Source of the DNA: an uncultured Acidobacteriota bacterium
Lineage (GTDB): Bacteria > Acidobacteriota > Thermoanaerobaculia > Gp7-AA8
Direction: 5' to 3'
Length of the DNA: 64,000 nt
NCBI GenBank assembly: GCA_963822445.1
Contig: CAWGHO010000003.1
Span: forward strand, 1,696,001-1,760,000
The notes under the pieces are model-generated. The model did not search any database. It worked only from the letters and a program-made list of their open reading frames with translations, and was not told the origin of the DNA. Both the position numbers and the translations under genes were made by a program. Positions 1,779 to 62,424 of this stretch are shown here, piece after piece (positions within the stretch are counted from its first letter, which is position 1; the number at the start of each line of letters is the position of its first letter).

Positions 1779-1840
1779 CAGTAGGCGGTAGGCGGTAGGC
1801 AGTGGAAACGGTTTTCCTGCCCACTGCCCACTGCCCACTG
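1779..1840. repeat. Inverted heptamer tandem-repeat hairpin (CRGTAGG / CTGCCCA)
   Basis: Left arm 1779-1805 cagtagg cggtagg cggtagg cagtgg; right arm 1817-1840 (ctgccca)x3 ctg. Confidence 0.85.
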
Positions 1841-1869
1841 CGAGCGCGACGCAAGGAGCGCGTACTGCC

Positions 1870-3878: not shown

Positions 3879-4474
<596 letters not shown>

Positions 4475-4484
4475 CCGCTCGCGC

Positions 4485-4558
4485 GAAATGCAGAATGCAG
4501 AATGCAAAATGCAGAAGGGATCATCTTTCTGCATTCTGCATTTTGCATTCTGCATTTC
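4485..4558. repeat. Inverted heptamer tandem-repeat hairpin (TGCAGAA / TTCTGCA) between convergent genes
   Basis: Arms 4485-4516 and 4527-4558, 32 nt each, nearly perfectly complementary. Confidence 0.92.
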
Positions 4559-10371: not shown

Positions 10372-10385
10372 TGGTTCCTTTCGGT

Positions 10386-10454
10386 CGTGTAGTGTGGGCC
10401 TCCGGCCTACCTCTGGGCGGGGCGCGAAGGTAGGCCGGAGGCCCACACTACACG
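10386..10454. repeat. REP doublet (REPIN-like), GTAG class
   Basis: Perfect 27-bp inverted repeat cgtgtagtgtgggcctccggcctacct / aggtaggccggaggcccacactacacg; each half is itself palindromic. Confidence 0.85.
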
Positions 10455-12310
10455 TCAGATTGCGGGGCGGACGTCGATGTTGATCTTCAGCGCGCCGTCG
10501 ACGATGTATCCGAGGGGGCGGGCCTGATGACCGGTGGCATGGTACTTCACCGGAGCCTGCGCTCCGTTCGAGGTATCCGCGCTGACCACCGCGCGCATCG
10601 ACGGCGGCAGATTCGGCAGATACACGCCCGAGGTCACCGCACCTTCGCCATTCGAATAGAGGCCGACGGTGAGGTCGGTCGAAGGACGCAGACGCTGCAA
10701 CACGGCCAGCACCTGCTCGAGCGTTCGCGGATCGGGCGGAACGAGCGTGAAGTCGACGGCGTTCATCACCGAGCCGCTGCCGATGAGCAGATACGCCTCG
10801 CCCGCGGGCTGGTCATCGGGGATGCGCACGTCGAACGTTTCGACGAACGACTCGCCGCGATAAGGCTTGAGCACCGTCCGCACTTTGACCGTGTCGCCCG
10901 CTTTGATGCGGCCGTTGTCCGTGCGCACCAGCGCGGCTTCCATCAGTTTCGCGGTGCGGAGCTCGTCGTCGTGGCGCAGGTTCACCTTCACCGACTCGAT
11001 GTCCGCAGCGCGGAACTCATTCGACATCAGGTAACCGGAAACGACGGCGAGATACGCGGGGATGGACTGGCGGGCCTGCTGGCCTGCCCAGCCTTCGCGA
11101 AGGCGGATCGGCTCGAAGCCCTTGATCCGGATCTCGGAGTCGAGCATCACCGTGCGCTCGCCGGCCGCGCGCTGCGCGTTGGCGATCACCGTGTCGGTGG
11201 CCATGGCCAGGATCAACGGCGAGAGATGCGAATGCCGGACGATGTTGACGTTGTAGGTCTGCTCGCCGTTCATGGGTCAGCTCGACCGGAATGAGATCCG
11301 CGGTCTCGCCGAGAACGCCCATGATGCCGGCCGAGCGGTCCTGCCGCAGCGCGCCGACGACGTTGCCGGTGTTCGAGAACTTGAACGAGCGTGGCCATGC
11401 TGGGCAGCACGGTCACGACTTCCGACGTCGCCATCGGGAAGCTGATCTCGCCCATGTCCAGGAAGGGATGGCCGAAGGCGTAAACCTTGTCGCCGTCGAC
11501 GTAAGTCACCGTTCCGCTGGCCGCGACGTTGAAGTCGCCGTTCAGGAGCACCGCGCCGACCGGATCGCCGGGCGCGAAGGTCTTCTTGTTGTTCGACGCA
11601 TTCTTCGCGGACGAGGTCGCGCCCGCGGGCACGGCCACGAATCCGAGGTTGTCGAGATGCGGGGCGAAGCGGGAAATGGTCTCCGGCGCGAAGCTGGAGA
11701 GCGACATCGGCATGGCGATGCGCTTCGCTCCGCTCATCGCGTTCACGGGACGCGACGCGGAGAAGGCGCTCATCAGCTTGTCGAACGCCGCGTCGGTTTT
11801 CTTGTCGGCAAGCGCCTGCAGCAATTCCGCGCCGGTCATCCGCGGGGCGGCGTCCGCGAGCGTGGCGCCGGCCGGCCGCGTGCGGCTGGAGATCTTCAGC
11901 ATCTCGTCGATCGGCGTGATGCCGGCGACGGGCTCTTTCGAGAACTGCCAGGCGTACGCGAGTGCGCCGATGACTTTTCCGTCGACGATGACCGGCGAGC
12001 CGGACATGCCGGCGATGATGCCCGCGCGGCGAACGACCGGTGAGTCGACGCGCGCCAGGATCAGATTCTGCTCGGGGCCGATGTTCTCCAGCACCCCCAG
12101 GATCTCCACCTCGAACCGCTCGACCTCGGTGCCCTCGAAGACGGTCAGGCCGTAGCCCTTCATCCCCTTCTTCACTTCCGAGAGCGGCATCTTTTCAGCG
12201 GTCGCTGCGGGCTGCGCAACCGCGGCAGACGCAAGCGTGACGGAAAACGCCATAGCGAGGACGGTGACCAGAAGCATCAATTTTCGGGTGAGCACGGTCG
12301 AAGTAACCAC
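10455..12310 (-). pseudogene. SpoIVB-type S55 serine peptidase broken by two +1 frameshifts (possibly sequencing errors)
   Basis: IIAGMSGSPV, GHPFL and QDR-AG motifs; removing one C near 11391 and one near 11274 joins three frames (MASSFKFSN...ELTMNGEQ). Confidence 0.8.
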
Positions 12311-13561: not shown

Positions 13562-13591
13562 AGGGACGAGGTTCGAGGGACGAGGTACGAG
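13562..13591. repeat. Heptamer arm (AGGKWCG x4) flanking the four-helix-bundle gene
   Basis: agggacg aggttcg agggacg aggtacg ag; abuts the permease ATG. Confidence 0.9.
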
Positions 13592-13976: not shown

Positions 13977-14006
13977 CTCGTCCCTCGTCCCTCGTACCTC
14001 TTACCT
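13977..14006. repeat. Heptamer arm (CTCGTMC x4), inverted partner of 13562-13591
   Basis: ctcgtcc ctcgtcc ctcgtac ctcttac ct; overlaps the ATPase stop codon. Confidence 0.9.
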
Positions 14007-20712: not shown

Positions 20713-20806
20713 GGATTGAGGATTGAGAATTGAGGATTGAGGATGCGCGTGCTCGCGACTGTCGTTTGGTGTTCATCCTCAATCCTCAATCCTCAATTCT
20801 CAATCC
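20713..20806. repeat. Inverted heptamer tandem-repeat hairpin (GGATTGA / TCAATCC)
   Basis: Arms 20713-20745 and 20774-20806, 33 nt each; the right arm contains the OppD-like stop codon. Confidence 0.92.
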
Positions 20807-21940: not shown

Positions 21941-23590
21941 TTACCGCCTCACGAACCGGCTCAAGGTCGAGCGCACTTCCGGTACGCCCAGAGCGAAGGC
22001 AACGCCGAAGTAGATGACGCCGAACACGCCGCAGGCGAGGATGGCCTCGGAGTACTGCTGCAGCGGCAACCGCAGGTCGAGCAGGTCGATCGCCAGTGCG
22101 GCAAAACCGGCCAGGAATGCCGAGATCCAGAGCTTCGCGTAGAACCCCCACTTCGGCTGTCCCTCGCCCACCCGCTTTCGAACGGCGGCGCGAAGAAGGA
22201 TGAATTCGATCCAGGCTGCGAACGCCGAGGCCGTGCTGATGCCGACCACGCCGAGGGCGGTGAATCCGCCGAGTCGCTGCGGCACGGGCAAGCCGAGGCC
22301 GGCGACGATTGCGGCGAACATCGGCCGCAGCGGAAAGGCAAAAAGGAGGGCGAGCGCAGCGCCGCCGATCACGCGCGCGACGGCGATGCGAAACGGCGTC
22401 TTGGTGTCATGCAGCGCATAGAGAGTGGATGAGTAAAGACGGCCGAGGGTCGCGGCGAGGAGTCCGAGCGATGCGCCGACGAGGACGTACCAGACCAGCG
22501 ACGTCGTGTCTGGAATGAACTCTCCCCTCTCGTACAACGCGCGAATCAGAAGCCGGCCGATGAGGATGAACGCGACCACGGTCGGAATCACGAAGAACGC
22601 GACCTGCCGCAGGCTCCGATCGAGGCGCTTGCGGATCGCGGTATGGATCTCTTCCTCCGAACCGGTCTCGCTGGCCATCTGCGGCAGCTCGGCGTTGGCG
22701 ATGGCCATTCCGAACACCGAGATCGGCAGCATGTAAATCGCCTGCGCGTACAGAAGACTGGAGACCGCGCCGCTGGCGATGTGCGTCGCGAGCAGGACGT
22801 CGACGTATCCGCTGATCTGCACCACGCCGCGGCCGCCGATGACCGGAACGATGTTCCGAAAGATCGTGCGAACCGGCTCGAGCGCGCGATCGAAGCCGAA
22901 GGAAAGATGCTTCGAGTGTTTCAGTACGAACGGGATCTCGATCGCGAACTGCAGCGCGCAGCCGATCAGCGTCCCCCAGGCCAGCGCCACCGCGAGCGGC
23001 GCGCCCCGCATGCGCATCCCGAAGATCACCATCGTCGCGATCATGGCCGCGCTCCACAGCACGGGCGCGACGTAACCTATGAAGAACTGGCGATGGGAGT
23101 TGAGGATGCCGAGGGCCCAGGCGTAGAGGACGAGCAGGCCGACGCCGGGAAAGATGATCCGCGTCAATTTCACGGCGAGGGCCATCACGTCCGGCTCCAG
23201 ACCGCCGGCGGTGATCTGCAGAATGACCGGCGTGGCGATCACGCCGATGATCACGATCACCGTGACGCCGAGGGCGAGGAAGGAGGCGAAAACTCCGGCG
23301 ACGCGGCCGGCCAGACGCTCCTCCCCTTTCGCAAGCAGTCGCGAATAAACGGGGATGAACGCCGCGGACAGCACGCCTTCACCGAACATGTTCTGGAGGA
23401 AGTTCGGGACCTTCAGCGCGACGTTGAACGCGTCCGCGGCGGACGACGCGCCGAAGTAGCGGGCGAAGACGACCGTGCGGATCAGGCCGGCGACACGACT
23501 GAGAAGAATGCCCGCCGCAACGAGGATCGCGTAACCGCCGAAACGGGCCGCGCGCGGCTGCGGTGGTGGTACTGGAAGGGCCTCCGACAC
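21941..23590 (-). CDS. murJ: Lipid II flippase MurJ
   Basis: SRVAGL-R, ADAF-VA-PN-L-FGEG-LSAAFIP and LYERGEF motifs; many TM helices. Confidence 0.92.
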
Positions 23591-23615
23591 GGCGGGATAA
23601 GATACTTTGCTTTCG

Positions 23616-24761
23616 ATGTCAGACACCCGACCCATCCTCATTGCAGGCGCGGGACCATCCGGTCTCGCCGCGGCAATCTCCCTCGCTCGCGCCGGGCGTG
23701 CCGTGGAAGTGCATGAAGCGAAGAAGGATGTAGGCACGCGCTTCATCGGCGACATCCAGATCATCGAGGGGTCGTCGGAGACCGAGCCGGTGCCCGATTT
23801 TCTCGATCGCATCGGCATCGAGCGCAACTTCTATTTCCGACCCGCGACCTGGGCCACGTTCTTCGACCACCGCAACAACGCCCGCACCATCAAGAGCCGC
23901 GATCCGTACGGCTACTTCATCCGCCGCGGCGCGGAAGAAACGACCCTCGATCGCGGACTGCTCGCCCAGGCCCGTGAACACGGCGCGAAGGTGATCTTCA
24001 ACAGCAGACTCGCGCCAGAGCAGGCGGATGTCGTGGCCACCGGTCCCGCCGCTCCGGACGGACTGGCGCGGGAGATGACCTGGAAGACCGACGAGCCGGA
24101 ACGGGTCGACGTCTACTTCAATCATCTGCTCGCGCCGGGCGGCTACGCGTACCTGTTCATCCTCGACGGCATCGCCACGTTCGGCTGCGCAATCGTCGCG
24201 GACTTCAAGAAGATCGACGACTACTTCGATCACTCCCTCGCCGCCGCGCAGAAGCTGCATCGATTCGAGATCCCCGCCGAGACCCGCACCGGCTACTCGT
24301 ACATGAACTTTCATCTGAAGCAGAGCGCGACCCGCGGCGAAGCGCGTTACGTCGGCGAGGCGGCCGGCTTTCAGGACTACCTGTTCGGACTCGGCATCCG
24401 CTACGCGCTCACCAGCGGCTGGCTCGCGGCGCGAAGCATTCTCGAGGAGCGCAGCTTCGACGAGCTCTGGACGCGCGAGCTCGGCGCGAAGCAGGAAACG
24501 AGTCTCGTCAATCGCTTTCTGTACGAGGCCGGCGGCAACAACGGCCTGTCGATGTTCGTCTGGCAGGCCTCGCGCGCGAAGGACTTCAACGGCTACCTGC
24601 GCGGCTGGCACAAGCGGACCTGGTGGAAGACGCTGCTCTCGCCGGTGGTGCGTCGGTTCTGGCGCCATCGCGGCCGCTGCCTGCACAAACCGCACGAGCA
24701 CTGGTGCCGCTCCCGCGACACCGAGATCAAAGTCCCGCCCCTCGGCCCGCTCACGCAATGA
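23616..24761 (+). CDS. FAD-dependent oxidoreductase (geranylgeranyl-reductase-like)
   Basis: GAGPSG Rossmann motif; PGGYAY; VGEAAG-QD-GI-AL-SG. Confidence 0.85.
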   Translation: MSDTRPILIAGAGPSGLAAAISLARAGRAVEVHEAKKDVGTRFIGDIQIIEGSSETEPVPDFLDRIGIERNFYFRPATWATFFDHRNNARTIKSRDPYGYFIRRGAEETTLDRGLLAQAREHGAKVIFNSRLAPEQADVVATGPAAPDGLAREMTWKTDEPERVDVYFNHLLAPGGYAYLFILDGIATFGCAIVADFKKIDDYFDHSLAAAQKLHRFEIPAETRTGYSYMNFHLKQSATRGEARYVGEAAGFQDYLFGLGIRYALTSGWLAARSILEERSFDELWTRELGAKQETSLVNRFLYEAGGNNGLSMFVWQASRAKDFNGYLRGWHKRTWWKTLLSPVVRRFWRHRGRCLHKPHEHWCRSRDTEIKVPPLGPLTQ

Positions 24762-25606
24762 CGACAGTCGACGAGGCTTACCGCTACTGCCGCGCGATCG
24801 CGCACAAGCACGGAGCGAACTTTTCCGTCGGCTTCCGCTTCCTGCCGCCGGCGAAGCGGCGCGCGGTGTATGCGGCGTATGCGTTTTGCCGGGTTGCGGA
24901 TGACATTGCGGATGAGCCGGGCGAACGAATCACCGAACGCCTCGACGCCTGGCAATCCGAGCTCGAAGCCTGCTACGCCGGCCATCCTTCGCATCCCATC
25001 ACCATCGCTCTCGCCGACGCCCTCACCCGCTACGACATCCCTAAAAACGCGTTCATCGCGTTGATCGACGGCTGCCGCCAGGACATGGTCAAGACGCGCT
25101 ACGAGACGTTCGAGGAGTTGCTCCAGTACTGCGATCTCGTCGCGACTTCCATCTCCGACATCTCCCTCTCGATTTACGGCTATCGCACCGCGGCCGCGCC
25201 GGAGTACGGGCGCAATCTCGCCACTGCGCTGCAGCTCACCAACGTGACCCGCGACATCGGCGACGACCTTCCTCGCGATCGCATCTACATCCCCCGCGAA
25301 GAGCTCCGCCGCTTCAACGTCACCGAGCAGGAGCTGTTCGCGCGAGCGGAAAACGATCGGGTCCGCGCCCTCATCGAATTCCAGATCGAGCGGGCCGAGG
25401 GGTACTTCCGGGCCGCGGAGCCGCTCCTGGGGGAGCTGTCCTTCGACGCCAGGTTTCCGACCCTGCTCATGGGTGGAATCTACGCAACCGTCCTCGGCAA
25501 ACTGCGCAAGGACCCGCTGATCGCCATCCGCCGGAGGCTCTCGCTTTCGAAGCTGCAGAAGGTGCTGGTCGTGGGCAGCCGCGTGCTCCGTCCACACTTT
25601 ATTTGA
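24758..25606 (+). CDS. Squalene/phytoene synthase family (HpnD/CrtB-like)
   Basis: YAFCR-ADDIAD and ALQLTN-RD-D-RIYIP motifs; ATGA overlap with the upstream gene. Confidence 0.92.
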   Translation: MTTVDEAYRYCRAIAHKHGANFSVGFRFLPPAKRRAVYAAYAFCRVADDIADEPGERITERLDAWQSELEACYAGHPSHPITIALADALTRYDIPKNAFIALIDGCRQDMVKTRYETFEELLQYCDLVATSISDISLSIYGYRTAAAPEYGRNLATALQLTNVTRDIGDDLPRDRIYIPREELRRFNVTEQELFARAENDRVRALIEFQIERAEGYFRAAEPLLGELSFDARFPTLLMGGIYATVLGKLRKDPLIAIRRRLSLSKLQKVLVVGSRVLRPHFI

Positions 25607-25641
25607 AACTCACAGATAATCAGGATCGTCTGACTGACGCG

Positions 25642-26379
25642 ATGAGGTGGGTGTTTTCGATCCTGGTGCTGTTTGGGGCGGCTGCGAACACCGCCGCGCA
25701 GCAGGACGTGACCTCGACGGCGGTCGTGCCCGTGGTCGGAAGCGTCTTCGGCGCGACCAACGTCCTCTGGAAAACGGACGTCGAGATCATCAACGAGACC
25801 GGCGGCGCGACCACAGTTGCGCTCGAACTGACGTCGGTTCCCGGCACGGCGCTCATCCTCGACCTTGCCCCGGGAGCCTCGCAGCGATTCAGCGACGTCG
25901 TGGGCCAGGCCTTCGGAGTCGATCTGGCGCTCTCCCCACTCCGCGTGACGACGATGGGCAGGCGATCGGTGACGGTGAAAGCGACCGCGTATGCCATCCG
26001 CGAAGGGACGATCTCGAAAACGCAATCGCTGGGGACGACCTACGGAACGGAGTACGCGCCGTTCCGGGCACTCGACGGACTCGCGTTCAGCGACGAAATG
26101 CGGACGAACATCGGTCTGGTGAACTTCAGCGACCGGCCGACAGACTTTCTGCTGGCCCTGCAACGTCTGCCCGGCCGCGACATGGCCGTCACCCGCGTCA
26201 ATGTGCCGGCGGAGTCGCTGCTGCACATCTCCATTCAGTCGCTTTTCCCTCTGATCACGAAAGGTGAGCATTTCCGCGTGGTCGTGGAGACGGTCGTGCG
26301 CGACACCTACGTCTACGCCTCGGTGATCGACAACGAGCACACGGGCACGTTCATCCAGCCGCGGGCCTCGTCGCGTTAG
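25642..26379 (+). CDS. Secreted hypothetical protein
   Basis: Signal peptide; WKTDV-I-N, RTNIGLVN and YASVIDN motifs. Confidence 0.7.
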   Translation: MRWVFSILVLFGAAANTAAQQDVTSTAVVPVVGSVFGATNVLWKTDVEIINETGGATTVALELTSVPGTALILDLAPGASQRFSDVVGQAFGVDLALSPLRVTTMGRRSVTVKATAYAIREGTISKTQSLGTTYGTEYAPFRALDGLAFSDEMRTNIGLVNFSDRPTDFLLALQRLPGRDMAVTRVNVPAESLLHISIQSLFPLITKGEHFRVVVETVVRDTYVYASVIDNEHTGTFIQPRASSR

Positions 26380-26485
26380 GTGGACACATCGTCGTCGGCC
26401 GGTGACACGATGCCTCGCAAATCGCTGATTTCAGGCGGTAAATGACGGCACGAGAGCGGCTACGAAGCGGCGGCGAGGTGATCGC

Positions 26486-27880
26486 TTGAAACATCGTTCG
26501 CAGCTCCTCTCCCTCCTCCTCCTTCTTCTTCTCACCGTTCCCCTCGCCGCTCAATCCGTCCAGGACGCGCTGACCATCGAAGTGGTCGACGTGCCGGTTT
26601 TCGTGACGCGCGGCGATCAACCGGTCGCGGGACTCAGCGCGGACGACTTCGAGCTGTTCGTGAACGGCAAACCGCAGGCGATCGACTACTTCGATGTGTC
26701 TGGATCGAGTGACGCGTCGTCACTCCGCGAGCGGCGGATGTTCGTGATCGTGCTCGATCTCGCGTTCTCGTCGCCGCACTCGGTCCGCCGCGCGCAGGAA
26801 GCAGCCGCGGAGATGATCGCCAAGGCCCCGGCCGGCGATCTGTTCGCGATCGCAACGTTCTCGTCGCGCCGCGCGGTGTGGTTCGCGACTCCTTTCACCT
26901 CCGATCGCGTTGCCCTGGCCCGCGGAATCGGAAGCCTGACGTCGTCGAAGTCCGGCGATCCGCTGGCAATTGTCCTCACCGCTTCGGAGCGTGCAGCGAT
27001 CGAGCCCCAGACTGGCGTGGTCGATCGCATCTCCGGCGATGCGATGCGCGACATCTGGCACACGCAGTTCGCGCGCGCCGCCGAGCATCAGATTCTGAGC
27101 TTCAAGGACCTCGCCGACCGGCTGGCGGCGCTGCAGGGTCAGAAGCACGTGGTCGTGCTGTCCGACGGCTACGCCGCTCAGCATCCGCGATTCGAGAGCT
27201 TTGGCGTTCCGTATCACGTGCTGCAGGAGATGTACGAGGCCTTTCAAAGCGGCGACATCCTCCTGCACACGGTCGACCTGAACGGCGTGCAGCAGATGCG
27301 CGGCAGCGACTCGTTGCGGATCCTCTCGAACGGCACCGGCGGCCAGACCGTGAGCAACCGCAACGATCTCGGCGAAGGTCTCGTCGAGCTCGCGAGCACC
27401 TACCGCAACGGCTATCTCCTCGGATTCAAGCCCGGCGCGGTGAAGGCCGGTCACAACAGGATCGAAGTGAAGGTGAAGGATCTTCCGCGCGGCACCACGG
27501 TGCAGTACCGCAAAGGCTTCTCCGGCACGCCACGGCAATTCGACGTGAACGAAGGCCTGTATCTCGCCGACGTCGTGCTGAATGACGTACCGCAGACCGG
27601 CACCGCGGCCGCGCTGAATCTCACCGGAGACAAGCTGGAAGTGCGCGTGCCGATGCGACCGCTGGCCGCGCAGCTCGGAATGGGCGGCAAGGCGGAGCTG
27701 ATGATCTACATCTTCGGCGCCGACGGCGTGGCCCTCGGCTTCCATCGTCAGACGATCGACGTGCCCTCCGACGCAACGGGCGAAAAAACGTTCTCGATCG
27801 AGATGCCCGCCGGCGCCAGGGTCGCGAAAGCGCTGCTGCGCGTCGATGACTCGCTCGGCTTCAGTCGAACGGGCGCGTAA
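26486..27880 (+). CDS. Secreted VWA-domain protein (acidobacterial type)
   Basis: VVDVPVFVT-G-PV-GL-DF; KHVVVLSDG; TGG; YLLGFKP. Confidence 0.82.
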   Translation: MKHRSQLLSLLLLLLLTVPLAAQSVQDALTIEVVDVPVFVTRGDQPVAGLSADDFELFVNGKPQAIDYFDVSGSSDASSLRERRMFVIVLDLAFSSPHSVRRAQEAAAEMIAKAPAGDLFAIATFSSRRAVWFATPFTSDRVALARGIGSLTSSKSGDPLAIVLTASERAAIEPQTGVVDRISGDAMRDIWHTQFARAAEHQILSFKDLADRLAALQGQKHVVVLSDGYAAQHPRFESFGVPYHVLQEMYEAFQSGDILLHTVDLNGVQQMRGSDSLRILSNGTGGQTVSNRNDLGEGLVELASTYRNGYLLGFKPGAVKAGHNRIEVKVKDLPRGTTVQYRKGFSGTPRQFDVNEGLYLADVVLNDVPQTGTAAALNLTGDKLEVRVPMRPLAAQLGMGGKAELMIYIFGADGVALGFHRQTIDVPSDATGEKTFSIEMPAGARVAKALLRVDDSLGFSRTGA

Positions 27881-36581: not shown

Positions 36582-36584
36582 CTC

Positions 36585-36617
36585 CTTCTGCCTTCTGCCT
36601 TCTGCTTTCTGCTTTCG
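36585..36617. repeat. Single heptamer arm (YTTCTGC x4) between mutS2 and dnaG
   Basis: cttctgc cttctgc cttctgc tttctgc tttcg; no partner arm nearby. Confidence 0.85.
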
Positions 36618-41050: not shown

Positions 41051-41136
41051 CTGGACTGCGGCAGCCGAACTGCCGCTCTCAACGCGGCGGCATCGTCGCC
41101 GCAAGCCAGAGCGGTAGCTGCGCTACCGCAGTCCAG
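41051..41136. repeat. GGA(C/G)TGCGG-family REP doublet
   Basis: ctggactgcggcagc...gctct / agagcggtagc...gctaccgcagtccag, between convergent genes. Confidence 0.8.
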
Positions 41137-41459: not shown

Positions 41460-44264
41460 CTACGCCGCCTGCGCGGCCGCCGGAATCTGCACCCGATCCA
41501 GATCCGCGAGCAGCGCACCTGCATCGGCGTAGCGCGTTTTCGGGTCTTTGGTCAGGCACTTCATCACGATGCCGTTGACCTCGCGGCCGATGTCGGGGCG
41601 CGCGTCGATCGGTGGCTTCGCCGCTTCGGTGATGTGCGCGGTCAGGACGCCGGTGAGCGATGACGACTCGAACGGGCGGCGGCCGACGAGCATCTCGTAG
41701 ATCAGCACGCCCATCGAATAAACGTCGCTGCGGGGATCGAGCTGTTTGCCCTGCACCTGCTCGGGGCTCATGTAGTGCGGCGTTCCGATGATCAGCCCTG
41801 CCTGGGTCATGGCCTCGGGCGTCTCGGCCATGCGCGCGATCCCGAAATCCATCAGCTTCACTTCGCCCTTCGCGTCGATGAGCACGTTGCCCGGCTTGAT
41901 GTCGCGGTGGATGATCCCCTGCTCGTGCGCGGCGTGCAGTCCGCGGCAGATCTGACGGGAGATGCCCACCGCGGCGCGCGCAGGCATCTGCCGGTTCGGC
42001 GCTTCCTCGAGCAGCTCGCTGAGCGTGTAGCCGCGCACGAACTCCATGCTGATGAAGTACACGCCCTCGGCCTGTCCGTAGTCGTACGTGCGCAGGACGT
42101 TGCGGTGGGTGATCTTGCGCGCCAGACGGATCTCGCGCTTGAAACGCTCCAGATCTTCCGGCGACCTGGTCATCACGTCGCCGGGCAGGGTCTTGATGGC
42201 CACGGTCTCGTCGAGCTGCGAGTCGACGGCTTTGTAGACGACGCCCATGCCGCCGCGGCCGAGGATCTGCTCGATCTTGTAGCGCTCGGCGAAGAGGTGT
42301 CCGAGCGGCAGATCGGCATACGGAGCTTGCGGAGCGGTGACACCGGCCGCGGTCGCGTCCATCTTCAGCGTCGCGCCCTCGGACATCGTTCCGCCCATCG
42401 AGCGCATCATCCCTGTCGTCACGCTGACCAGCGGCAGAGACGCAACCGGCAGCGGCTGCGCGAGCCACTTGAGGCGGACTTCCTCGCGCGTCGACGAGCT
42501 CAAAACCTCGCTGCCGGCCGACTGCGCGGTTTCGTAGGAAACGTAGGCGTACCCGTTCGGCGCGTGCCACGCGAAGAGCAGCGCAAGGAGCGGCGCATCG
42601 CCGATGATGGCCAGTCCCGACTCGTTCTCCAGCGACACGGATCCGGTCACGAACTCGCCGGTCGCGATCCCGATGCCAATCGACATCGGCGTGCTCGCAC
42701 CGAACTGCAGCGCGAGCTCCTCGTTGATCGCCCGCGCCGCGCGGATGGCGTGAATGATTCCGCGGTCGCCGCGGAAAACCGAAACGAGCCGATGTCCGTC
42801 CAGCTCGCGCACCGAGCCGTCCTGGCGAATGACTTCCGCCTGCTGGATGCGCATGGCCCGCTCGACGGTGGCGATCACAGTCTCGGCGTCGCTCTCACCG
42901 ACAGAGGAGAGGCCACGGAGGTCGGTCACCAGGATCGTCCCCTCATCCCGCTTCGCCGCTTCGGGAGGTTTCGCCGCCGGAACATCCTCGGCCTTCTCGG
43001 CCATGTCGGCGTAGAGCTGCTCGAGCTCGGCCTTGTCGCGGAGCGAATTCATCATCTTTCCGAACGAGCGGCCGAGGATTCCGACTTCGTCGTTGCGGTC
43101 GCTGGGAGGATCGACGGAGTAGTCGCCCGCGGTCACGGCCTGGGCGATCCCCGCGAGCTGCTCGATCGGCCGGGTCACGCGCTTGGCGATCAGCCACGAC
43201 AGCAGAAACGCCAGCAGCAACGCAACGCCGCCGCCGATGAGCATGGCGTTCTCGATCTCGCGGAATGGCGCGAGCTCGCGGTCGAGCGAGCGGAGGAAGA
43301 TCGCCGAACCGACGACGTCCCGTCCGGATACGAGCGGCTCGGTGGTGAAGATGTAGCGGCTCTGATCGACGGTCGTCTCGGACGTCTTCTCCTGCGGCAG
43401 GCTCTGAGGCGAAACGCTGGGCGCCTCGGCAGACCGGACGGTCATCGACTCCGCCCCCTTGGTCCCGAAGACCACGCCGGCATTCGTCGATTCGGCGATG
43501 CGGTTGGCGAAGGTCTCGTCGATGGCGAACGCGTTCACGAGATAGCCGATGCGCACGCCGCGCGGGCCGGCACCGATCGGAGCGACCGCGGCGTGGAAGA
43601 GCTTGTTGCCGAGGCGAAGAACGCCGGATGTGCGTGCGACCGAGGCGTCGTCGACGATCTGCTTGACCAGAGGAGTCTGGTTGTAAAGATCCTCCTTCGA
43701 CGCCGAGGCGACCATCGGGTCGTCCGTTCGGGCCACGAGGACGCCCTGGTCGTCGAGGAGCATCATCACGTCGACACCGAGACGGGTTCGCTGCTCGCCG
43801 AGGGTGTCGTTGATGCTTACGAGGTCGATGGCACGGGGGGCCGGTTCGGTTGGGACAGCCGCAGCCGGTTCGGGAGTCGCGGCCGGCGCCGCCGGATCAG
43901 CAGGCGCGGGCTCCGTGGCGGCCGCGGGCTCGCCCTCGATCGCGGCCTGAATGTAGGCCACGAAATTCGGATCGCTGCCCATGATCCCGGTGACGCTCTC
44001 CAGCCCCTTCAAGCGATCCGCCTCGAACTGCTTGAAGAGCTTGGCCGCGCTGGTGATCGACTTGTTGACCGAGGTCTGGGCGACCTGGTTCGCGCGCTGG
44101 ATGGTGATGGCGACGGCGACGGCGACGACGATCACGATGAGAACGGCGGTCAGCCCGAACAGCTTGAGGACCAGCGGGAACCGCGGCCGCTCCACCGCGT
44201 ACTCCTTCTTCTTCGGCAGCTCGCGGTCGGCGACGGTGACGGGATCCAGTGTTTGGTCAGTCAC
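41460..44264 (-). CDS. Membrane Ser/Thr kinase: TM, periplasmic domain, TM, HAMP, degenerate class III cyclase, kinase
   Basis: GRGGMG, VAIK, HRDIKPGN, DFG and GTPHYMSPE; HAMP motif RNDEVG-L; AAGGAG site before the GTG. Confidence 0.88.
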   Translation of the reverse strand: MTDQTLDPVTVADRELPKKKEYAVERPRFPLVLKLFGLTAVLIVIVVAVAVAITIQRANQVAQTSVNKSITSAAKLFKQFEADRLKGLESVTGIMGSDPNFVAYIQAAIEGEPAAATEPAPADPAAPAATPEPAAAVPTEPAPRAIDLVSINDTLGEQRTRLGVDVMMLLDDQGVLVARTDDPMVASASKEDLYNQTPLVKQIVDDASVARTSGVLRLGNKLFHAAVAPIGAGPRGVRIGYLVNAFAIDETFANRIAESTNAGVVFGTKGAESMTVRSAEAPSVSPQSLPQEKTSETTVDQSRYIFTTEPLVSGRDVVGSAIFLRSLDRELAPFREIENAMLIGGGVALLLAFLLSWLIAKRVTRPIEQLAGIAQAVTAGDYSVDPPSDRNDEVGILGRSFGKMMNSLRDKAELEQLYADMAEKAEDVPAAKPPEAAKRDEGTILVTDLRGLSSVGESDAETVIATVERAMRIQQAEVIRQDGSVRELDGHRLVSVFRGDRGIIHAIRAARAINEELALQFGASTPMSIGIGIATGEFVTGSVSLENESGLAIIGDAPLLALLFAWHAPNGYAYVSYETAQSAGSEVLSSSTREEVRLKWLAQPLPVASLPLVSVTTGMMRSMGGTMSEGATLKMDATAAGVTAPQAPYADLPLGHLFAERYKIEQILGRGGMGVVYKAVDSQLDETVAIKTLPGDVMTRSPEDLERFKREIRLARKITHRNVLRTYDYGQAEGVYFISMEFVRGYTLSELLEEAPNRQMPARAAVGISRQICRGLHAAHEQGIIHRDIKPGNVLIDAKGEVKLMDFGIARMAETPEAMTQAGLIIGTPHYMSPEQVQGKQLDPRSDVYSMGVLIYEMLVGRRPFESSSLTGVLTAHITEAAKPPIDARPDIGREVNGIVMKCLTKDPKTRYADAGALLADLDRVQIPAAAQAA

Positions 44265-44289
44265 GCGGGTTGGGCGCTCCTTGTTTTCA

Positions 44290-44384
44290 CGGTTGCGGGG
44301 TTTCGGGGTTGCGGGGTTTCGCGGTTGCTGGGAGCCCAGAACCCGGCCACCCCGAAACCTCGAAACTCCGCGACCCCGAAACGC
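44290..44384. repeat. Inverted octamer tandem-repeat hairpin (GGGTTKCG / CGAAACCC)
   Basis: Arms 44290-44328 and 44346-44384, 39 nt each. Confidence 0.85.
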
Positions 44385-44389
44385 ACCAC

Positions 44390-45055
44390 TCAGTAATCCC
44401 GGGCCGGTTTGTAGGTCTGCCCGAACTTGTTCTTGTGCTGCGACTGGCGGAAGTTGCGGCTGTCGATAGTGACCAGGGGGGCGTTGGGCAGGCCGTTGGG
44501 GCCGACCTCCAGGTCGCTCGTCACCGTCCCCCCCTGCTCGTTCCAGGCGGTCAGGCGGTATTTGCCCGGCGGGACGTCGAACGAGTACCTGCCGTTCGCG
44601 TCGGCGAAGCCGTAGTAAGGGGTCGACATCACGTGTACTACGGCGGACATGTTCGGATGGACGTTGCAGTAGATGCTGACCACGCCGGGGGTCTCGAACT
44701 TGTGAGGTTTGCCCGGTCCCTTGCGATAGAGACCGAGGTCGAAGGTGTTGCCGGGGGTGAGGGAAAAGAGGTTGTGGGCGATCGGGTCTTCGTTCGGGAA
44801 GTTGATCGTCGCCCCGGCCGGGACGGCCACGACGTGCGGCAGAAAGGTCTTGCTGCGCGTGGTCATGGTGAAGGTCGGCGCCGTGCGGCGGGAGGGTTTG
44901 CCGGCGACCGGATCGAGCCAGATCAGGGTCTCGTTCTTGACCGGATTCTGGCCGCGCTTGGTGAGAAACATGACTTGTCCGCTCACAACTGCAGCGCTGA
45001 GCTCGCCGGCGAAAAGAAGGACGCTGAGGCCGGCAGCGACGAGGAACCGTTTCAT
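44390..45055 (-). CDS. Secreted cupredoxin / carboxypeptidase-regulatory-like protein
   Basis: FPNED-IAHNLFS, YCNVHPNM and VPPGKYRL-AW motifs; signal peptide. Confidence 0.8.
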   Translation of the reverse strand: MKRFLVAAGLSVLLFAGELSAAVVSGQVMFLTKRGQNPVKNETLIWLDPVAGKPSRRTAPTFTMTTRSKTFLPHVVAVPAGATINFPNEDPIAHNLFSLTPGNTFDLGLYRKGPGKPHKFETPGVVSIYCNVHPNMSAVVHVMSTPYYGFADANGRYSFDVPPGKYRLTAWNEQGGTVTSDLEVGPNGLPNAPLVTIDSRNFRQSQHKNKFGQTYKPARDY

Positions 45056-45516
45056 AGGATTTTGCTCCGGGAGCCGGAAAGTGTAGCACAGGGATTTGTG
45101 CTTCGGGATGTGCCTCGGCATGGGGGTTGAAGTAGAAATGTCATGCGAATTTTTCATTGCGATTTTCGTGAAAAAACGTACTCTATTCGACATGCTCACA
45201 TGCGCACGGGGGAGGGCGAGCTGCAATAAAGCAGATCGGCCGCTGTTTCCCTAGCCATACGTTTTCAGTGCGGCAGACGGCCGCATGATCTTTTGAAAAG
45301 TCGACCAGTTCCCGCTCCTCCCCACCACCGCGGGGTGTGCGAGCGGTCGATCCGGTCCGCAACATCGGCAAGGTGGGTCATGGCACGTGACATGACGCCG
45401 TTGCGGGGCCGCCGGAAATTCATGGGGAGGAGGTACACGAATTCGCTATGGATTGTTCTAATAAACCTGAGGGGGCTACTTCGTAGCACTGCTACTCGGT
45501 AGCAACCCAACCCCGG

Positions 45517-62351: not shown

Positions 62352-62424
62352 CGGTGTGGTGCAGGCCTCTGGCCTGCCCCTCGTTCCCCCGCCCAAAGGC
62401 AGGCCGGAGGCCTGCACCACACCG
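62352..62424. repeat. REP doublet, same family as 10386-10454
   Basis: cggtgtggtgcaggcctctggcctgcc ... ggcaggccggaggcctgcaccacaccg. Confidence 0.85.

What the first reader, a model, noticed from the sequence alone, without database searches (positions are those of the whole stretch)
24842..25048. Same C-to-G switch inside the squalene/phytoene synthase gene with no element present (ghost site)
Seen: 26 codons at 24842-24919 have C3 3/26 and G3 16/26 (tat, ttt, gtt, gat, att). The next 43 codons (24920-25048) have G3 3/43 (gaa, cga, caa, aaa). The switch is abrupt and lies in the variable loop after the DDIAD motif. Mid-gene position removes the start/stop-context explanation. Inference: scar of a repeat element that once sat in-frame in this loop and was lost, or a recurrent break site.
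Basis: partly seen in the sequence, partly recalled or inferred. Interest (0 to 1): 0.72.

Follow-up and report, generated by a model that had tools for sequence, protein, structure and literature searches.

The report
Empty repeat-insertion hot spot, skewed codons
An abrupt change in synonymous codon choice inside a squalene-synthase-type gene is real and lies exactly where related soil bacteria carry mobile hairpin repeats read as protein, but this genome's copy has an uninterrupted loop with no trace of a lost element.

Summary
The counts are exact and far beyond independent codon choice: 0 of 20,000 within-gene synonymous shuffles reach the step.

The gene (24758-25606) is an intact, single-copy HpnD-like squalene/phytoene synthase. 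The step falls at the inter-helix loop after DDIADE.

Of 164 unique orthologues, all Thermoanaerobaculia/Acidobacteriota MAGs or metagenome contigs, 40 carry in-frame, stop-free insertions of more than 20 aa in this loop. These are REP-type hairpins and palindromes of tandem 7-8-mers from several multi-copy families. A soil contig about 95% identical diverges into a REP copy right after base 24916.

The "scar" reading is not supported:
- G000 has the family-typical 12-residue loop, also seen in solved CrtM, and no element remnant.
- G000's step is the most extreme of the 164.
- Element-bearing orthologues show only a weak tendency that vanishes in independent pairs.
- Element-free G-to-C switch points are no commoner genome-wide than their mirror image, 84 versus 107.

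Best reading: an empty allele of a repeat-insertion hot spot, with lineage-specific synonymous skew of unexplained origin. The scan found a similar in-frame hairpin hot spot before, in lhr of this genome.

The parts
24758..25606 (+). Intact HpnD-like squalene/phytoene synthase gene (282 aa), single copy in the genome
   Evidence: ORF and translation. NCBIfam TIGR03465 HpnD scores 270.9 bits, just under the 278.6 cut-off. Solved CrtM 8is6 matches at E 8e-38. tblastn finds only this copy in G000.
24842..24919 (+). Left patch: 26 codons, G3 16 / T3 7 / C3 3. Encodes the conserved LPPAKRRAVYAAYAFCRVADDIADEP.
   Evidence: Codons 29-42 tend to G3 across the family, with mean skew +0.12 to +0.25. CGG45, GCG47, GAT48, GCG51 and GAT52 are shared with the nearest relative L036. 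TAT38, TAT41, GTT46 and ATT50 are G000-specific.
24920..25048 (+). Right patch: 43 codons, C3 29 / G3 3
   Evidence: Against the orthologue consensus, 0 of 14 consensus-C3 sites are changed and 8 of 11 consensus-G3 sites are changed (G>C 5, G>A 2, G>T 1). This comparison is post hoc.
24899..24916 (+). First Asp-rich motif DDIADE (D48-E53), at the end of a helix
   Evidence: Sequence. D45, D46 and D49 of the aligned orthologue are invariant in 27 sequences. The helix ends at the motif in the AlphaFold model.
24914..24949 (+). Inter-helix loop E53-A64 (EPGERITERLDA): an unoccupied insertion hot spot
   Evidence: Loop length is 9-113 aa in 164 orthologues, with 40 above 20 aa. It is a disordered linker in the model of an insert-bearing orthologue.
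24916..24917 (.). Point where a soil contig about 95% identical (run X3) leaves the window sequence and continues as a REP-type repeat
   Evidence: table 8 record 18 (24390-24916, 26 differences in 527) and table 7 (loose end of 59 letters behind 24916). The motif family was then found in G000 itself.
24894..24915 (+). Two copies of TTGCGGATGA 12 nt apart (VADD / IADE). Six of the unusual third bases sit in this pair of 12-nt units as three parallel pairs.
   Evidence: Read from the sequence. Relatives mostly have GTS GCS GAC GAC / ATC GCC GAC GAG. Concerted change is an inference.
23607..24761 (+). Upstream geranylgeranyl-reductase-family flavoprotein gene, overlapping the synthase start
   Evidence: NCBIfam TIGR02032 at E 1.1e-18, 68 bits, below its 158.8 cut-off.

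Best explanation
Window 24842-25048 is ordinary coding sequence of an intact HpnD-like squalene/phytoene synthase. The G3-to-C3 step is a real property of this lineage's copy, and its cause is unexplained.

The step lies at the edge of a short, disordered inter-helix loop right after the first Asp-rich motif. In related Thermoanaerobaculia this loop is a hot spot where mobile hairpin repeats land. These are REP/REPIN-type palindromes and palindromes built of tandem 7-8-mers. They persist when they stay in frame and free of stops. G000 carries the empty, family-typical form of that loop.

The step itself is most likely synonymous-site heterogeneity. It combines a family-wide tendency to G-ending codons in codons 29-42 and C-ending codons after them with synonymous changes specific to the G000 branch. 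Some of those are shared with its nearest relative, and some are parallel changes in two adjacent 12-nt units. It is not a footprint left by a lost element.

Shown: the counts, their rarity, the hot spot, the multi-copy nature of the inserts, and the empty ancestral-type loop. Inferred: that the step has no causal link to an earlier element.
For: 1. Counts and rarity.
2. Hot spot: 164 unique orthologues have loops of 9-113 aa. 40 exceed 20 aa and 0 have stops.
3. Hairpin folding: 18 of those 40 loops fold as DNA at -0.33 kcal/mol per nt or lower, many with uninterrupted stems. Random 120-nt coding stretches of G000 give about -0.20 +/- 0.04. This is a rough yardstick because lengths differ.
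4. The inserts are multi-copy in their own genomes. REPb has 81 matches in G013. REPc has 75 in G022. The L017 palindrome has 82 in G024 at 86-100% identity. G000 has only 4, 0 and 2. Both strands are counted, and only 40 candidates were scored per genome.
5. AlphaFold model of an insert-bearing orthologue: pLDDT 91.4, helix 28-49 ending at DDIAD, coil 50-73 with block means of 52-54 over residues 51-70, then helix 74-94.
6. G000's loop has the family-typical length and aligns to CrtM 8is6 with one 1-residue gap. The same 12-residue class occurs in other families of the order, L020 and L021.
7. G000's D is the highest of 164. Independent pairs show no link between insertion and D: 13 pairs, p = 1.
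8. Genome scan with 90-nt arms and D>=0.7: 244 G-to-C peaks, 160 with an inverted repeat. 110 C-to-G peaks, 3 with one. The element-free counts are 84 versus 107, so there is no excess of 'ghosts'.
9. The two patches do not pair with each other: z = +0.4. There is no Rfam match and no paralogue or repeated DNA.
Against: - The step coincides to within 3 nt with the insertion point. That is about a 2-3% coincidence for one site in a 282-codon gene. This is my estimate, not a computed test.
- The two nearest sequences both carry a hairpin there. L036 is nearest on the tree at 70-86% nt identity by segment, and its D of 0.61 ranks 9th of 164. The X3 contig is about 95% identical.
- Naively, insert-bearing orthologues have higher D: 0.20 versus 0.01, Mann-Whitney p = 0.0018.
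- The non-homologous flanks of 49 REP copies in G000 show the same polarity out to about 100 nt. Mean D is +0.28, or +0.26 after skipping the first 15 nt, where 45 of 49 are positive; background sd is 0.17.
- One of the 7 other same-polarity codon steps in G000 is itself an in-frame REP.
- No positive cause for the step has been shown.
Confidence: 0.58

Rival explanations
1. Empty preferred target. The hairpin repeats, at least the GGAGT-footed REP family, integrate preferentially where local G-C skew flips from G-rich to C-rich. On this view the G000 step came first and makes this loop attractive. The site is unoccupied, not vacated.
For: - Flanks of 49 REP copies in G000 have no sequence consensus but a consistent G-rich-left / C-rich-right skew that decays by 120-160 nt. 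After skipping the first 15 nt, 45 of 49 are positive.
- The flank skew does not depend on how perfect the hairpin is, used as an age proxy: Spearman 0.20 (p = 0.16) and -0.07 (p = 0.64).
- G000's empty site has D = 0.63, in the top 0.065% of positions.
- A relative about 95% identical has this REP family inserted right there.
- Insertion and D are associated naively among 164 orthologues.
Against: - Only 1 of 49 REP flanks reaches the D of this site, so the site is not typical of REP flanks.
- Most orthologues with inserts have modest D, and the independent-pairs test shows nothing.
- Flanks of 19 copies of another family in G024 show no target consensus; skew was not measured there.
- Gene-end context or neighbouring older hairpins could produce the flank skew. 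This was not excluded.
Confidence: 0.2
2. Ghost site. An element sat in this loop in a direct ancestor of G000 and was excised precisely. The flanking C loss on the left and G loss on the right is a footprint of repeated breakage and repair at the hairpin.
For: - Gain and loss at this loop is frequent. 30 state changes are needed for 40 insert-bearing rows on the tree, which is an upper bound because the FastTree is weak.
- The nearest sequences carry elements.
- The polarity matches what resection of a break with damage to the exposed strand would give. This rests on recalled general knowledge, not on a test.
- Against the orthologue consensus, the left patch has C>T 6 and C>G 1 with 3 of 10 consensus-C sites kept. 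The right patch has 0 of 14 consensus-C sites changed and 8 of 11 consensus-G sites changed. This comparison is post hoc.
Against: - The native loop residues are intact, and there is no remnant.
- The changes are not mirror images: left is mainly C>T, right is mainly G>C.
- Insert-bearing orthologues show no extra T3 on the left or A3 on the right: 0.13 versus 0.11, and 0.06 versus 0.06.
- Element-free G-to-C peaks (84) do not exceed C-to-G peaks (107).
- The families seen in relatives' loops are nearly absent from G000.
Confidence: 0.12
3. Recombination mosaic. The heterologous loop, with an insert in one partner and none in the other, ends homologous-exchange tracts. The DNA left and right of it then has different histories and different codon skew.
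For: - Another same-polarity step (G000:C2, codon 92 of the gene at 2482137) coincides with a boundary of homology in 7 relatives.
- Codons 29-97 have 26% A/T-ending codons against about 13-15% in the rest of the gene. These figures are my counts.
Against: - No donor-like sequence was found. G000's identity to relatives shows no switch of nearest neighbour across the loop beyond noise.
- Whole-gene skew differences in this genome are far smaller than +/-0.5 to 0.8.
- That other step is explained by an in-frame REP.
Confidence: 0.06
4. A functional nucleotide-level signal inside the gene, such as an RNA structure, an internal promoter, a binding site or a programmed slow-translation patch, constrains synonymous sites.
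For: - There is a cluster of rare T-ending codons (TAT, TAT, TTT, GTT, ATT) just before the loop.
- There is a 10-nt direct repeat TTGCGGATGA.
Against: - There is no excess structure: z = +0.4 for both DNA and RNA.
- There is no Rfam match.
- Synonymous conservation in codons 29-44 is not above the gene average in 164 orthologues: 0.665 against 0.686, and the permutation test is not significant.
- The T3 codons are specific to G000.
Confidence: 0.03

Closest known systems
Rickettsia palindromic elements (RPEs): selfish palindromes inserted in frame in protein-coding genes. Ogata et al. 2000 and 2002, as described in passages of the MITE review PMC10969869 read.
   Same: In relatives, short palindromic multi-copy repeats sit in frame, without stops, in a loop of a metabolic enzyme, and the fold is predicted to be kept.
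   Different: - Here several unrelated hairpin families occupy one and the same loop in different genomes. These include REP-type elements, tandem 7-8-mer palindromes and unique GC palindromes.
- The host is free-living soil Acidobacteriota.
- G000 itself has no element.
REP/REPIN repeats spread by RAYT (Y1) transposases, such as E. coli REP/BIME. The REP superfamily paper PMC3733652 was seen only as a search listing.
   Same: - The GGAGT-footed palindrome family has 49 paired copies in G000.
- Four Y1_Tnp (PF01797) matches lie above the cut-off in G000.
- A copy of this family sits at this loop in a relative about 95% identical.
   Different: - REPs are by definition extragenic. Here copies are read as protein.
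- I know of no report of a G-to-C skew extending about 100 nt into non-homologous flanks, but I ran no literature search for it.
GC-skew sign change at replication termini. This is an analogy only and is recalled knowledge.
   Same: The same strand switches from G>C to C>G.
   Different: - The scale is about 200 nt rather than megabases.
- The switch is confined to third codon positions of one gene.
- The window's cumulative skew shows no replichore boundary here.
Palindromes with arms of tandem 7-9-mers in Thermoanaerobaculia. Earlier notes e1-758973 and e1-758975, the second in the lhr linker.
   Same: The same class of hairpin is seen in relatives' loops (L036, L082, L193, L019, L023) and in intergenic gaps of this window.
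   Different: At this site in G000 there is none.

Membership tests
Squalene/phytoene synthase family, HpnD-like | Profile match at equivalog level | tested here: not met
   TIGR03465 HpnD scores 270.9 bits against a 278.6 cut-off. It is the best of 5 family hits: HpnC 204 bits and CrtB models 92-214 bits. The superfamily assignment is safe, but the exact product is not settled.
Squalene/phytoene synthase family, HpnD-like | Two Asp-rich motifs and homology to solved enzymes | tested here: met
   DDIAD lies at residues 48-52, and RDIGDD lies later in the protein. The protein aligns over residues 3-265 to CrtM 8is6 at E 8e-38, and also matches HpnC 4hd1 and CrtM 2zco.
RPE-like in-frame palindromic repeat | A palindromic, multi-copy element present in the gene, in frame | tested here: not met
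   It is met in 40 of 164 orthologues. It is not met in G000: no inverted repeat, no repeated DNA, and a loop of family-typical length.
REP/REPIN with RAYT | A short palindrome family in many copies, plus a Y1 transposase in the genome | tested here: met
   G000 has 49 paired copies of the TGGAGTGCGGCGG-footed hairpin. There are 61 motif hits against 9 for the reversed control. There are 4 PF01797 matches above the cut-off. Whether those transposase genes are flanked by REPs, as RAYTs are, was not tested. This applies to the genome and to the relative's allele, not to the site in G000.
Excision scar / footprint | Residual element ends, a target duplication or altered loop residues | tested here: not met
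   The loop EPGERITERLDA matches the basal class EPGExxxxRLDx of relatives and CrtM. The motif search in the window finds only chance-level matches elsewhere.
Excision scar / footprint | Element-free switch points of this polarity in excess over the mirror polarity | tested here: not met
   84 versus 107 genome-wide, and 31 versus 65 inside ORF-genes, at D90>=0.7. The codon-based scan gives 8 versus 13.

The most novel reading that the evidence does not exclude
The hairpin repeats of these Acidobacteriota choose their integration sites by a regional feature of the DNA, not by a sequence motif. That feature is a flip from G-rich to C-rich over about 100 nt on each side. On this reading the HpnD loop of G000 is a strong, still-empty target. 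That would explain why many unrelated hairpin families converge on one loop, and why a close relative has a REP exactly at the step.
Probability: 0.2. Interest if true: 0.65.

Novelty: new variant of a known kind. Interest (0 to 1): 0.5.

Why it matters
In-frame selfish palindromes are best known from Rickettsia, according to the review passages read. Here one loop next to a catalytic motif of a lipid-pathway enzyme has been colonised again and again by different hairpin families in free-living soil Acidobacteriota. The scan had already met the same pattern in lhr of this genome.

That makes this group a natural system for three questions:
- How REP/REPIN-type repeats pick their targets.
- How proteins tolerate translated repeats.
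- How fast such inserts turn over.

The G-to-C skew in non-homologous REP flanks may be a handle on target choice, if it holds up. For annotation, the lesson is that a strong codon-skew step alone is not evidence of a lost element. The mirror-polarity control removes that inference.

Tried and rejected
- **Paralogue gene conversion or repeated DNA:** tblastn and blastn find only the gene itself.
- **Hairpin between the two patches, or an mRNA structure:** z = +0.41 for DNA over 207 nt and +0.38 for RNA over 91 nt.
- **Known RNA family:** 0 Rfam matches at E<=1 in 23500-26500.
- **Conserved synonymous block in codons 29-42:** it looked so in 22 genus sequences. It vanished with 164 orthologues: top-codon frequency 0.665 against a gene mean of 0.686. 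The claim is dropped.
- **tRNA-reuse codon autocorrelation:** there is no positive same-amino-acid autocorrelation. There is only a weak cross-amino-acid one: +0.04 at lag 1-2, +0.016 at lag 5-8, and about 0 beyond 20-30 codons.
- **Next-base context bias:** it goes the wrong way and makes the patch rarer.
- **Mirror-image deamination:** the left patch is mainly C>T but the right patch is mainly G>C. There is no T3/A3 excess in insert-bearing orthologues.
- **Target consensus for the G024 palindrome:** none is visible in the flanks of 19 copies.
- **Closer relatives in the held collections:** the best found has 81% protein identity.
- **Insertions in relatives at other same-polarity steps.** Sites 6 and 7 were not searched.
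  - Site 1: the gene is found in only 2 of 30 genus genomes.
  - Site 2: 16 relatives, no indel within 50 codons of the step.
  - Site 3: 23 relatives. 4-aa inserts lie 13-18 codons upstream in 4 of them, and deletions of 7 and 11 aa lie 7 codons downstream in 2.
  - Site 4: relatives are 6-27 nt longer; the place was not located.
  - Site 5: it is itself an in-frame REP.
- **Phylogenetically independent pairs, insertion versus D:** 13 pairs, about 2 in each direction, p = 1, with low power.
- **Read laying:** stretches without cover in X1, X3 and X4 say nothing. 210 differences were not shown, so I could not read every codon of the X3 allele in 24842-24916.
- **Literature:** a search for Acidobacteria + palindromic + repeat + in-frame + insertion gave 3 papers. 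None is on this topic by title or abstract start.
- **Not used:** Complex prediction, the search for homologous proteins and the search of protein representatives.
Full report
**1. What is at the coordinates**

The finding lies inside a 282-codon ORF, ATG 24758 to stop 25606 on the + strand. Its protein is a squalene/phytoene synthase family member.
- The best NCBIfam model is HpnD (presqualene diphosphate synthase) at 270.9 bits, just under the 278.6 cut-off. HpnC and CrtB models score lower.
- It aligns over residues 3-265 with solved CrtM 8is6 (E 8e-38), and also with HpnC 4hd1 and CrtM 2zco.
- It is the only member of the family that tblastn finds in the 6.0-Mb genome, and no part of it is repeated elsewhere.
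- Upstream, overlapping its start, lies a geranylgeranyl-reductase-family flavoprotein gene. murJ lies further up on the other strand.
- Record titles of relatives name MAGs of Acidobacteriota, class Thermoanaerobaculia, some labelled 'gp7'.

**2.

- Codons 24842-24919: G3 16, T3 7, C3 3 of 26.
- Codons 24920-25048: C3 29, A3 6, T3 5, G3 3 of 43.
- The boundary is between P54 and G55, two residues after DDIADE.

I used genome-wide codon usage from a crude ORF-based gene set: 3764 ORFs covering 76% of the genome, chosen by GC3. Given the amino acids:
- P(C3<=3) is 5.6e-6 for the left patch.
- P(G3<=3) is 2.8e-7 for the right patch.
- Conditioning on the next base makes both rarer (1.6e-7 and 5e-8), because this genome prefers C-ending codons before G.

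None of 20,000 within-gene synonymous shuffles reaches the observed step. D here is the G3-minus-C3 skew of the 26 codons before a point minus that of the 43 codons after it. Observed D is 1.10; shuffles give 0.47 +/- 0.10.

The site is not unique. With the same windows, which were tuned to this site, the gene set holds 8 steps of this polarity and 13 of the opposite one. Ten genome-wide shuffles gave 1 and 1 in total. So real genes of this genome have more local G3/C3 heterogeneity than independent codon choice gives. A weak cross-amino-acid autocorrelation over about 10-20 codons exists. There is no same-amino-acid (tRNA-reuse) signal.

**3.

In a search of 41 related genomes, several orthologues matched in two pieces split at residues 55-60. 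Reading them showed in-frame insertions right after DDIADE.

I then pooled three sets of loci:
- 30 from the genome search.
- 80 from metagenome contigs.
- 80 from genome contigs.

That is 190 loci and 165 distinct coding sequences, of which 164 have both anchor motifs.

Loop length after DDxxD ranges from 9 to 113 aa.
- 49 have 13 aa or fewer. This includes the 12-aa EPGExxxxRLDx class to which G000 belongs.
- 75 have 14-20 aa.
- 40 have more than 20 aa.
- None of the 164 has a stop.

Most long loops are hairpins at the DNA level.
- 18 of 40 fold at -0.33 kcal/mol per nt or lower, many with uninterrupted stems of 15-35 bp.
- Random 120-nt coding stretches of G000 give about -0.20 +/- 0.04. 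Lengths differ, so this is only a rough yardstick, and I ran no shuffles for the loops.

The inserts belong to several unrelated families.
- A REP-type GTCATCCTGAGC...GCTCAGGATGAC hairpin, read as 'VILSREDGEGP...SLRMT': 10 loci.
- Inverted arrays of octamers GAGTCKTC / GAMGACTC: 10 loci.
- Inverted arrays of heptamers: L036, L082, L193, L236.
- A GTCATTCCGCGCG hairpin: L018.
- Assorted GC-rich palindromes: L017, L060, L205, L087, L066, L250, L049.

Three inserts tested as DNA are members of multi-copy families in their own genomes. Palindromes hit both strands, and only 40 candidates per genome were scored, so these are not copy numbers.

| Insert | G013 | G019 | G022 | G024 | G000 |
|---|---|---|---|---|---|
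| REPb | 81 | 80 | 77 | 82 | 4 |
| REPc | 0 | 57 | 75 | 12 | 0 |
| L017 palindrome | 0 | 60 | 84 | 82 (86-100% identity) | 2 |

Flanks of 19 G024 copies show no target consensus.

On a FastTree protein tree built without the loop, insert versus no insert needs 30 changes. The 10 REPb rows need 10 changes and the 10 octamer rows need 9. The tree is weak, so these are upper bounds, but gain, loss or replacement is clearly frequent.

An AlphaFold model of an insert-bearing orthologue (L022, alignment of 27) is confident: pLDDT 91.4 and pTM 0.88. It places the insert as a coil (residues 50-73) between two helices, with block-mean pLDDT of 52-54 over residues 51-70. The first helix ends at DDIAD.

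**4. The closest sequences**

No held genome or metagenome contig is closer than 81% protein identity. On the tree the nearest is L036, a 1223-nt metagenome contig. It carries a (GGCAGTT)n/(AACTGCC)n hairpin in the loop, and its D of 0.61 is 9th of 164.
- It shares CGG45, GCG47, GAT48, GCG51, GAT52, CAA66 and TCC67 with G000.
- TAT38, TAT41, GTT46, ATT50, GCC88, CTC89, CCT95 and AAA96 are G000's own.

I laid Logan contigs of four soil and sediment runs on 24300-25600.
- In X3, one 586-nt contig matches 24390-24916 with 26 differences in 527 (about 95%). It then runs on for 59 letters unlike the window.
- The shown 30 letters of that loose end are a near-copy of the foot and first arm of a REP family that G000 itself carries.
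- That family has 61 motif hits in G000 against 9 for the reversed control, and 49 paired copies of 57-104 nt.
- So a close relative has a REP starting right after base 24916.
- An 87%-identical contig in X2 resumes matching at 24941, the first base of codon L62, after unlike letters.
- Two other contigs bridge the loop without gaps: X1 over 24887-25038 at about 94%, and X2 over 24811-25089 at about 93.5%.
- All this is contig-level evidence at low depth. 210 differences were not displayed, so I cannot say that the X3 allele shares every unusual codon of the left patch.

**5. Why the step is nevertheless not a scar**

(a) G000's loop EPGERITERLDA is the basal class. It is also found in two other families of the order (L020, L021). 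It aligns with one 1-residue gap to CrtM 8is6, 'DE-GENPKEELEAF'. Nothing element-like remains, and the two patches do not pair.

(b) The step belongs to G000, not to the hot spot. Here D is redefined as the G3-minus-C3 skew of the 24 codons before the loop minus that of the 33 codons after it. G000's D of 1.03 is the highest of 164.
- The family has only a mild step, and it lies earlier. Codons 29-42 average +0.12 to +0.25. Codons 43-52 average -0.38 to -0.47.
- G000 extends the C3-poor stretch to codon 54 and depletes G3 on the right.

(c) Insert-bearing orthologues have a somewhat higher D: 0.20 versus 0.01, Mann-Whitney p = 0.0018, ignoring relatedness. In 13 phylogenetically independent pairs the effect is absent: about 2 pairs each way, p = 1, with low power.

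(d) The predicted mirror-image damage signature is not there.
- Against the orthologue consensus, the left patch shows C>T 6 and C>G 1.
- The right patch shows G>C 5, G>A 2 and G>T 1 (post hoc).
- Insert-bearing orthologues have no extra T3 on the left or A3 on the right.

(e) The mirror-polarity control. I scanned the genome with 90-nt arms at D>=0.7.

| Polarity | Peaks | With a >=10-bp inverted repeat | Element-free | Element-free, inside ORF-genes |
|---|---|---|---|---|
| G-to-C | 244 | 160 | 84 | 31 |
| C-to-G | 110 | 3 | 107 | 65 |

The background rate of such inverted repeats is 5.1%. Hairpin elements explain the whole excess of this polarity. There is no surplus population of ghosts.

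(f) I searched five of the 7 other same-polarity codon steps in 30 genus genomes.
- One gene is too rare to judge.
- Two show no nearby insertion of more than 4 aa.
- One has relatives 6-27 nt longer, at a place I did not locate.
- One is itself an in-frame REP.
- Two were not searched.

(g) Part of the signal is not independent. Six of the unusual third bases lie in two adjacent 12-nt units, GTTGCGGATGAC / ATTGCGGATGAG, as three parallel pairs. This suggests concerted change of a small tandem repeat. That is an inference.

**6. What speaks for a link, and remains unexplained**

- The step and the insertion point coincide within 3 nt.
- The nearest sequences carry hairpins.
- In G000 the non-homologous flanks of the 49 REP copies show the same polarity. 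G exceeds C on the left (skew +0.13 to +0.17) and C exceeds G on the right (-0.19 to -0.25) out to about 60 nt, fading by 120-160 nt.
- Mean D for those flanks is +0.28, or +0.26 after skipping the first 15 nt, where 45 of 49 are positive. The background is 0 +/- 0.17. The effect is independent of neighbouring gene orientation and of hairpin perfection.
- This fits either a regional target preference or some context effect that I did not exclude, such as gene ends or older hairpins nearby.
- Only 1 of 49 REP flanks reaches the D of this site (0.63), so the site is stronger than a typical REP flank.
- I rank 'empty preferred target' as the leading rival (0.2) and the ghost reading at 0.12.

**7. 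Comparison with what is known**

- The behaviour of the relatives' loops matches Rickettsia palindromic elements: in-frame, multi-copy palindromes compatible with the fold. I read passages on these in the MITE review PMC10969869. The original papers were not read.
- The REP family matches REP/REPIN repeats. G000 has four Y1_Tnp matches above the cut-off. Whether these are RAYTs flanked by REPs was not tested.
- Earlier notes of this scan on the same genome described three things:
  - tandem-unit palindromes as an abundant, fast-turning-over class;
  - an in-frame one in the lhr linker, with different hairpins at the same spot in relatives;
  - the GGAGT-footed REP family.
- My results agree with these notes and add a second hot spot.
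- A literature search for Acidobacteria + palindromic + repeat + in-frame + insertion returned three papers. None is on this topic by title or abstract start.

**8. Verdict**

The recurrent insertion site is strongly supported. The scar of a lost element is not.
- The thing in G000 is an empty allele of a hairpin-repeat hot spot, with an unexplained, lineage-specific synonymous skew.
- Interest is moderate. The multi-family in-frame hot spot next to a catalytic motif, and the skew in REP flanks, are worth following. The 'ghost' inference itself does not stand.

Two of the genomes read (G002, G041) are unpublished. They contribute one of the 164 orthologues (L012, a 15-aa loop) and three rows in the control-site tables (L134, L154, L164). 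No claim depends on them.

Noticed in passing
G000:C2:2482365-2482422 (outside the window; locus L115): A 58-nt GGAGT-footed REP hairpin lies in frame inside a predicted membrane-protein gene, read as LIWSAAALPPLWKAAAELPHSI. It sits at one of the 8 same-polarity codon-skew steps of the genome. The 120-nt fold is -43.9 kcal/mol, z = -4.3. In 7 of 28 genus relatives the match to this protein starts only at residues 80-97.
   Followed up: partly
G000 genome-wide: 49 paired copies, e.g. C3:1189526-1189612: Non-homologous flanks of the TGGAGTGCGGCGG-footed REP family are G-rich on the left and C-rich on the right out to about 100 nt. Mean D is +0.28, or +0.26 after skipping the first 15 nt, where 45 of 49 are positive. 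The effect is independent of gene orientation. The cause is unknown.
   Followed up: partly
window 1781-1841, 3879-3968, 4485-4558, 20713-20806, 36584-36616, 13562-13591, 13977-14000: Tandem-heptamer repeats fill short gaps between ORFs. Each has its own heptamer, for example AATGCAG/TTCTGCA and GGATTGA/ATCCTCA. Three of them (3879-3968, 4485-4558, 20713-20806) were confirmed as paired inverted arrays. None lies inside an ORF of my set. With strict criteria there are 31 in the genome, 18 of them of the AATGCAG type, and 1 is inside an ORF.
   Followed up: partly
window 44285-44382: A palindrome of tandem 8-mers, GGTTGCGG / ACCCCGAA, lies inside a 1209-aa ORF on the minus strand (41460-45089). 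It may be an in-frame hairpin insertion. The ORF was not identified.
   Followed up: no
window 10381-10459, 41051-41136, 62352-62424: REP-like hairpins with 27-32-nt arms that are 83-96% complementary lie at gene boundaries.
   Followed up: no
window 24758-25606 and the whole genome: tblastn at E<=1e-3 finds only one squalene/phytoene-synthase-family gene in the genome. It sits next to a geranylgeranyl-reductase-family flavoprotein, not next to hpnC/hpnE. The product of the pathway is therefore unclear.
   Followed up: no
genome-wide (G000): At D90>=0.9 there are 58 G-to-C but only 7 C-to-G skew switch points. At D90>=0.7, 160 of 244 G-to-C peaks hold an inverted repeat, against 3 of 110 C-to-G peaks. 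The hairpin families of this genome therefore nearly always have the G-rich arm first.
   Followed up: partly
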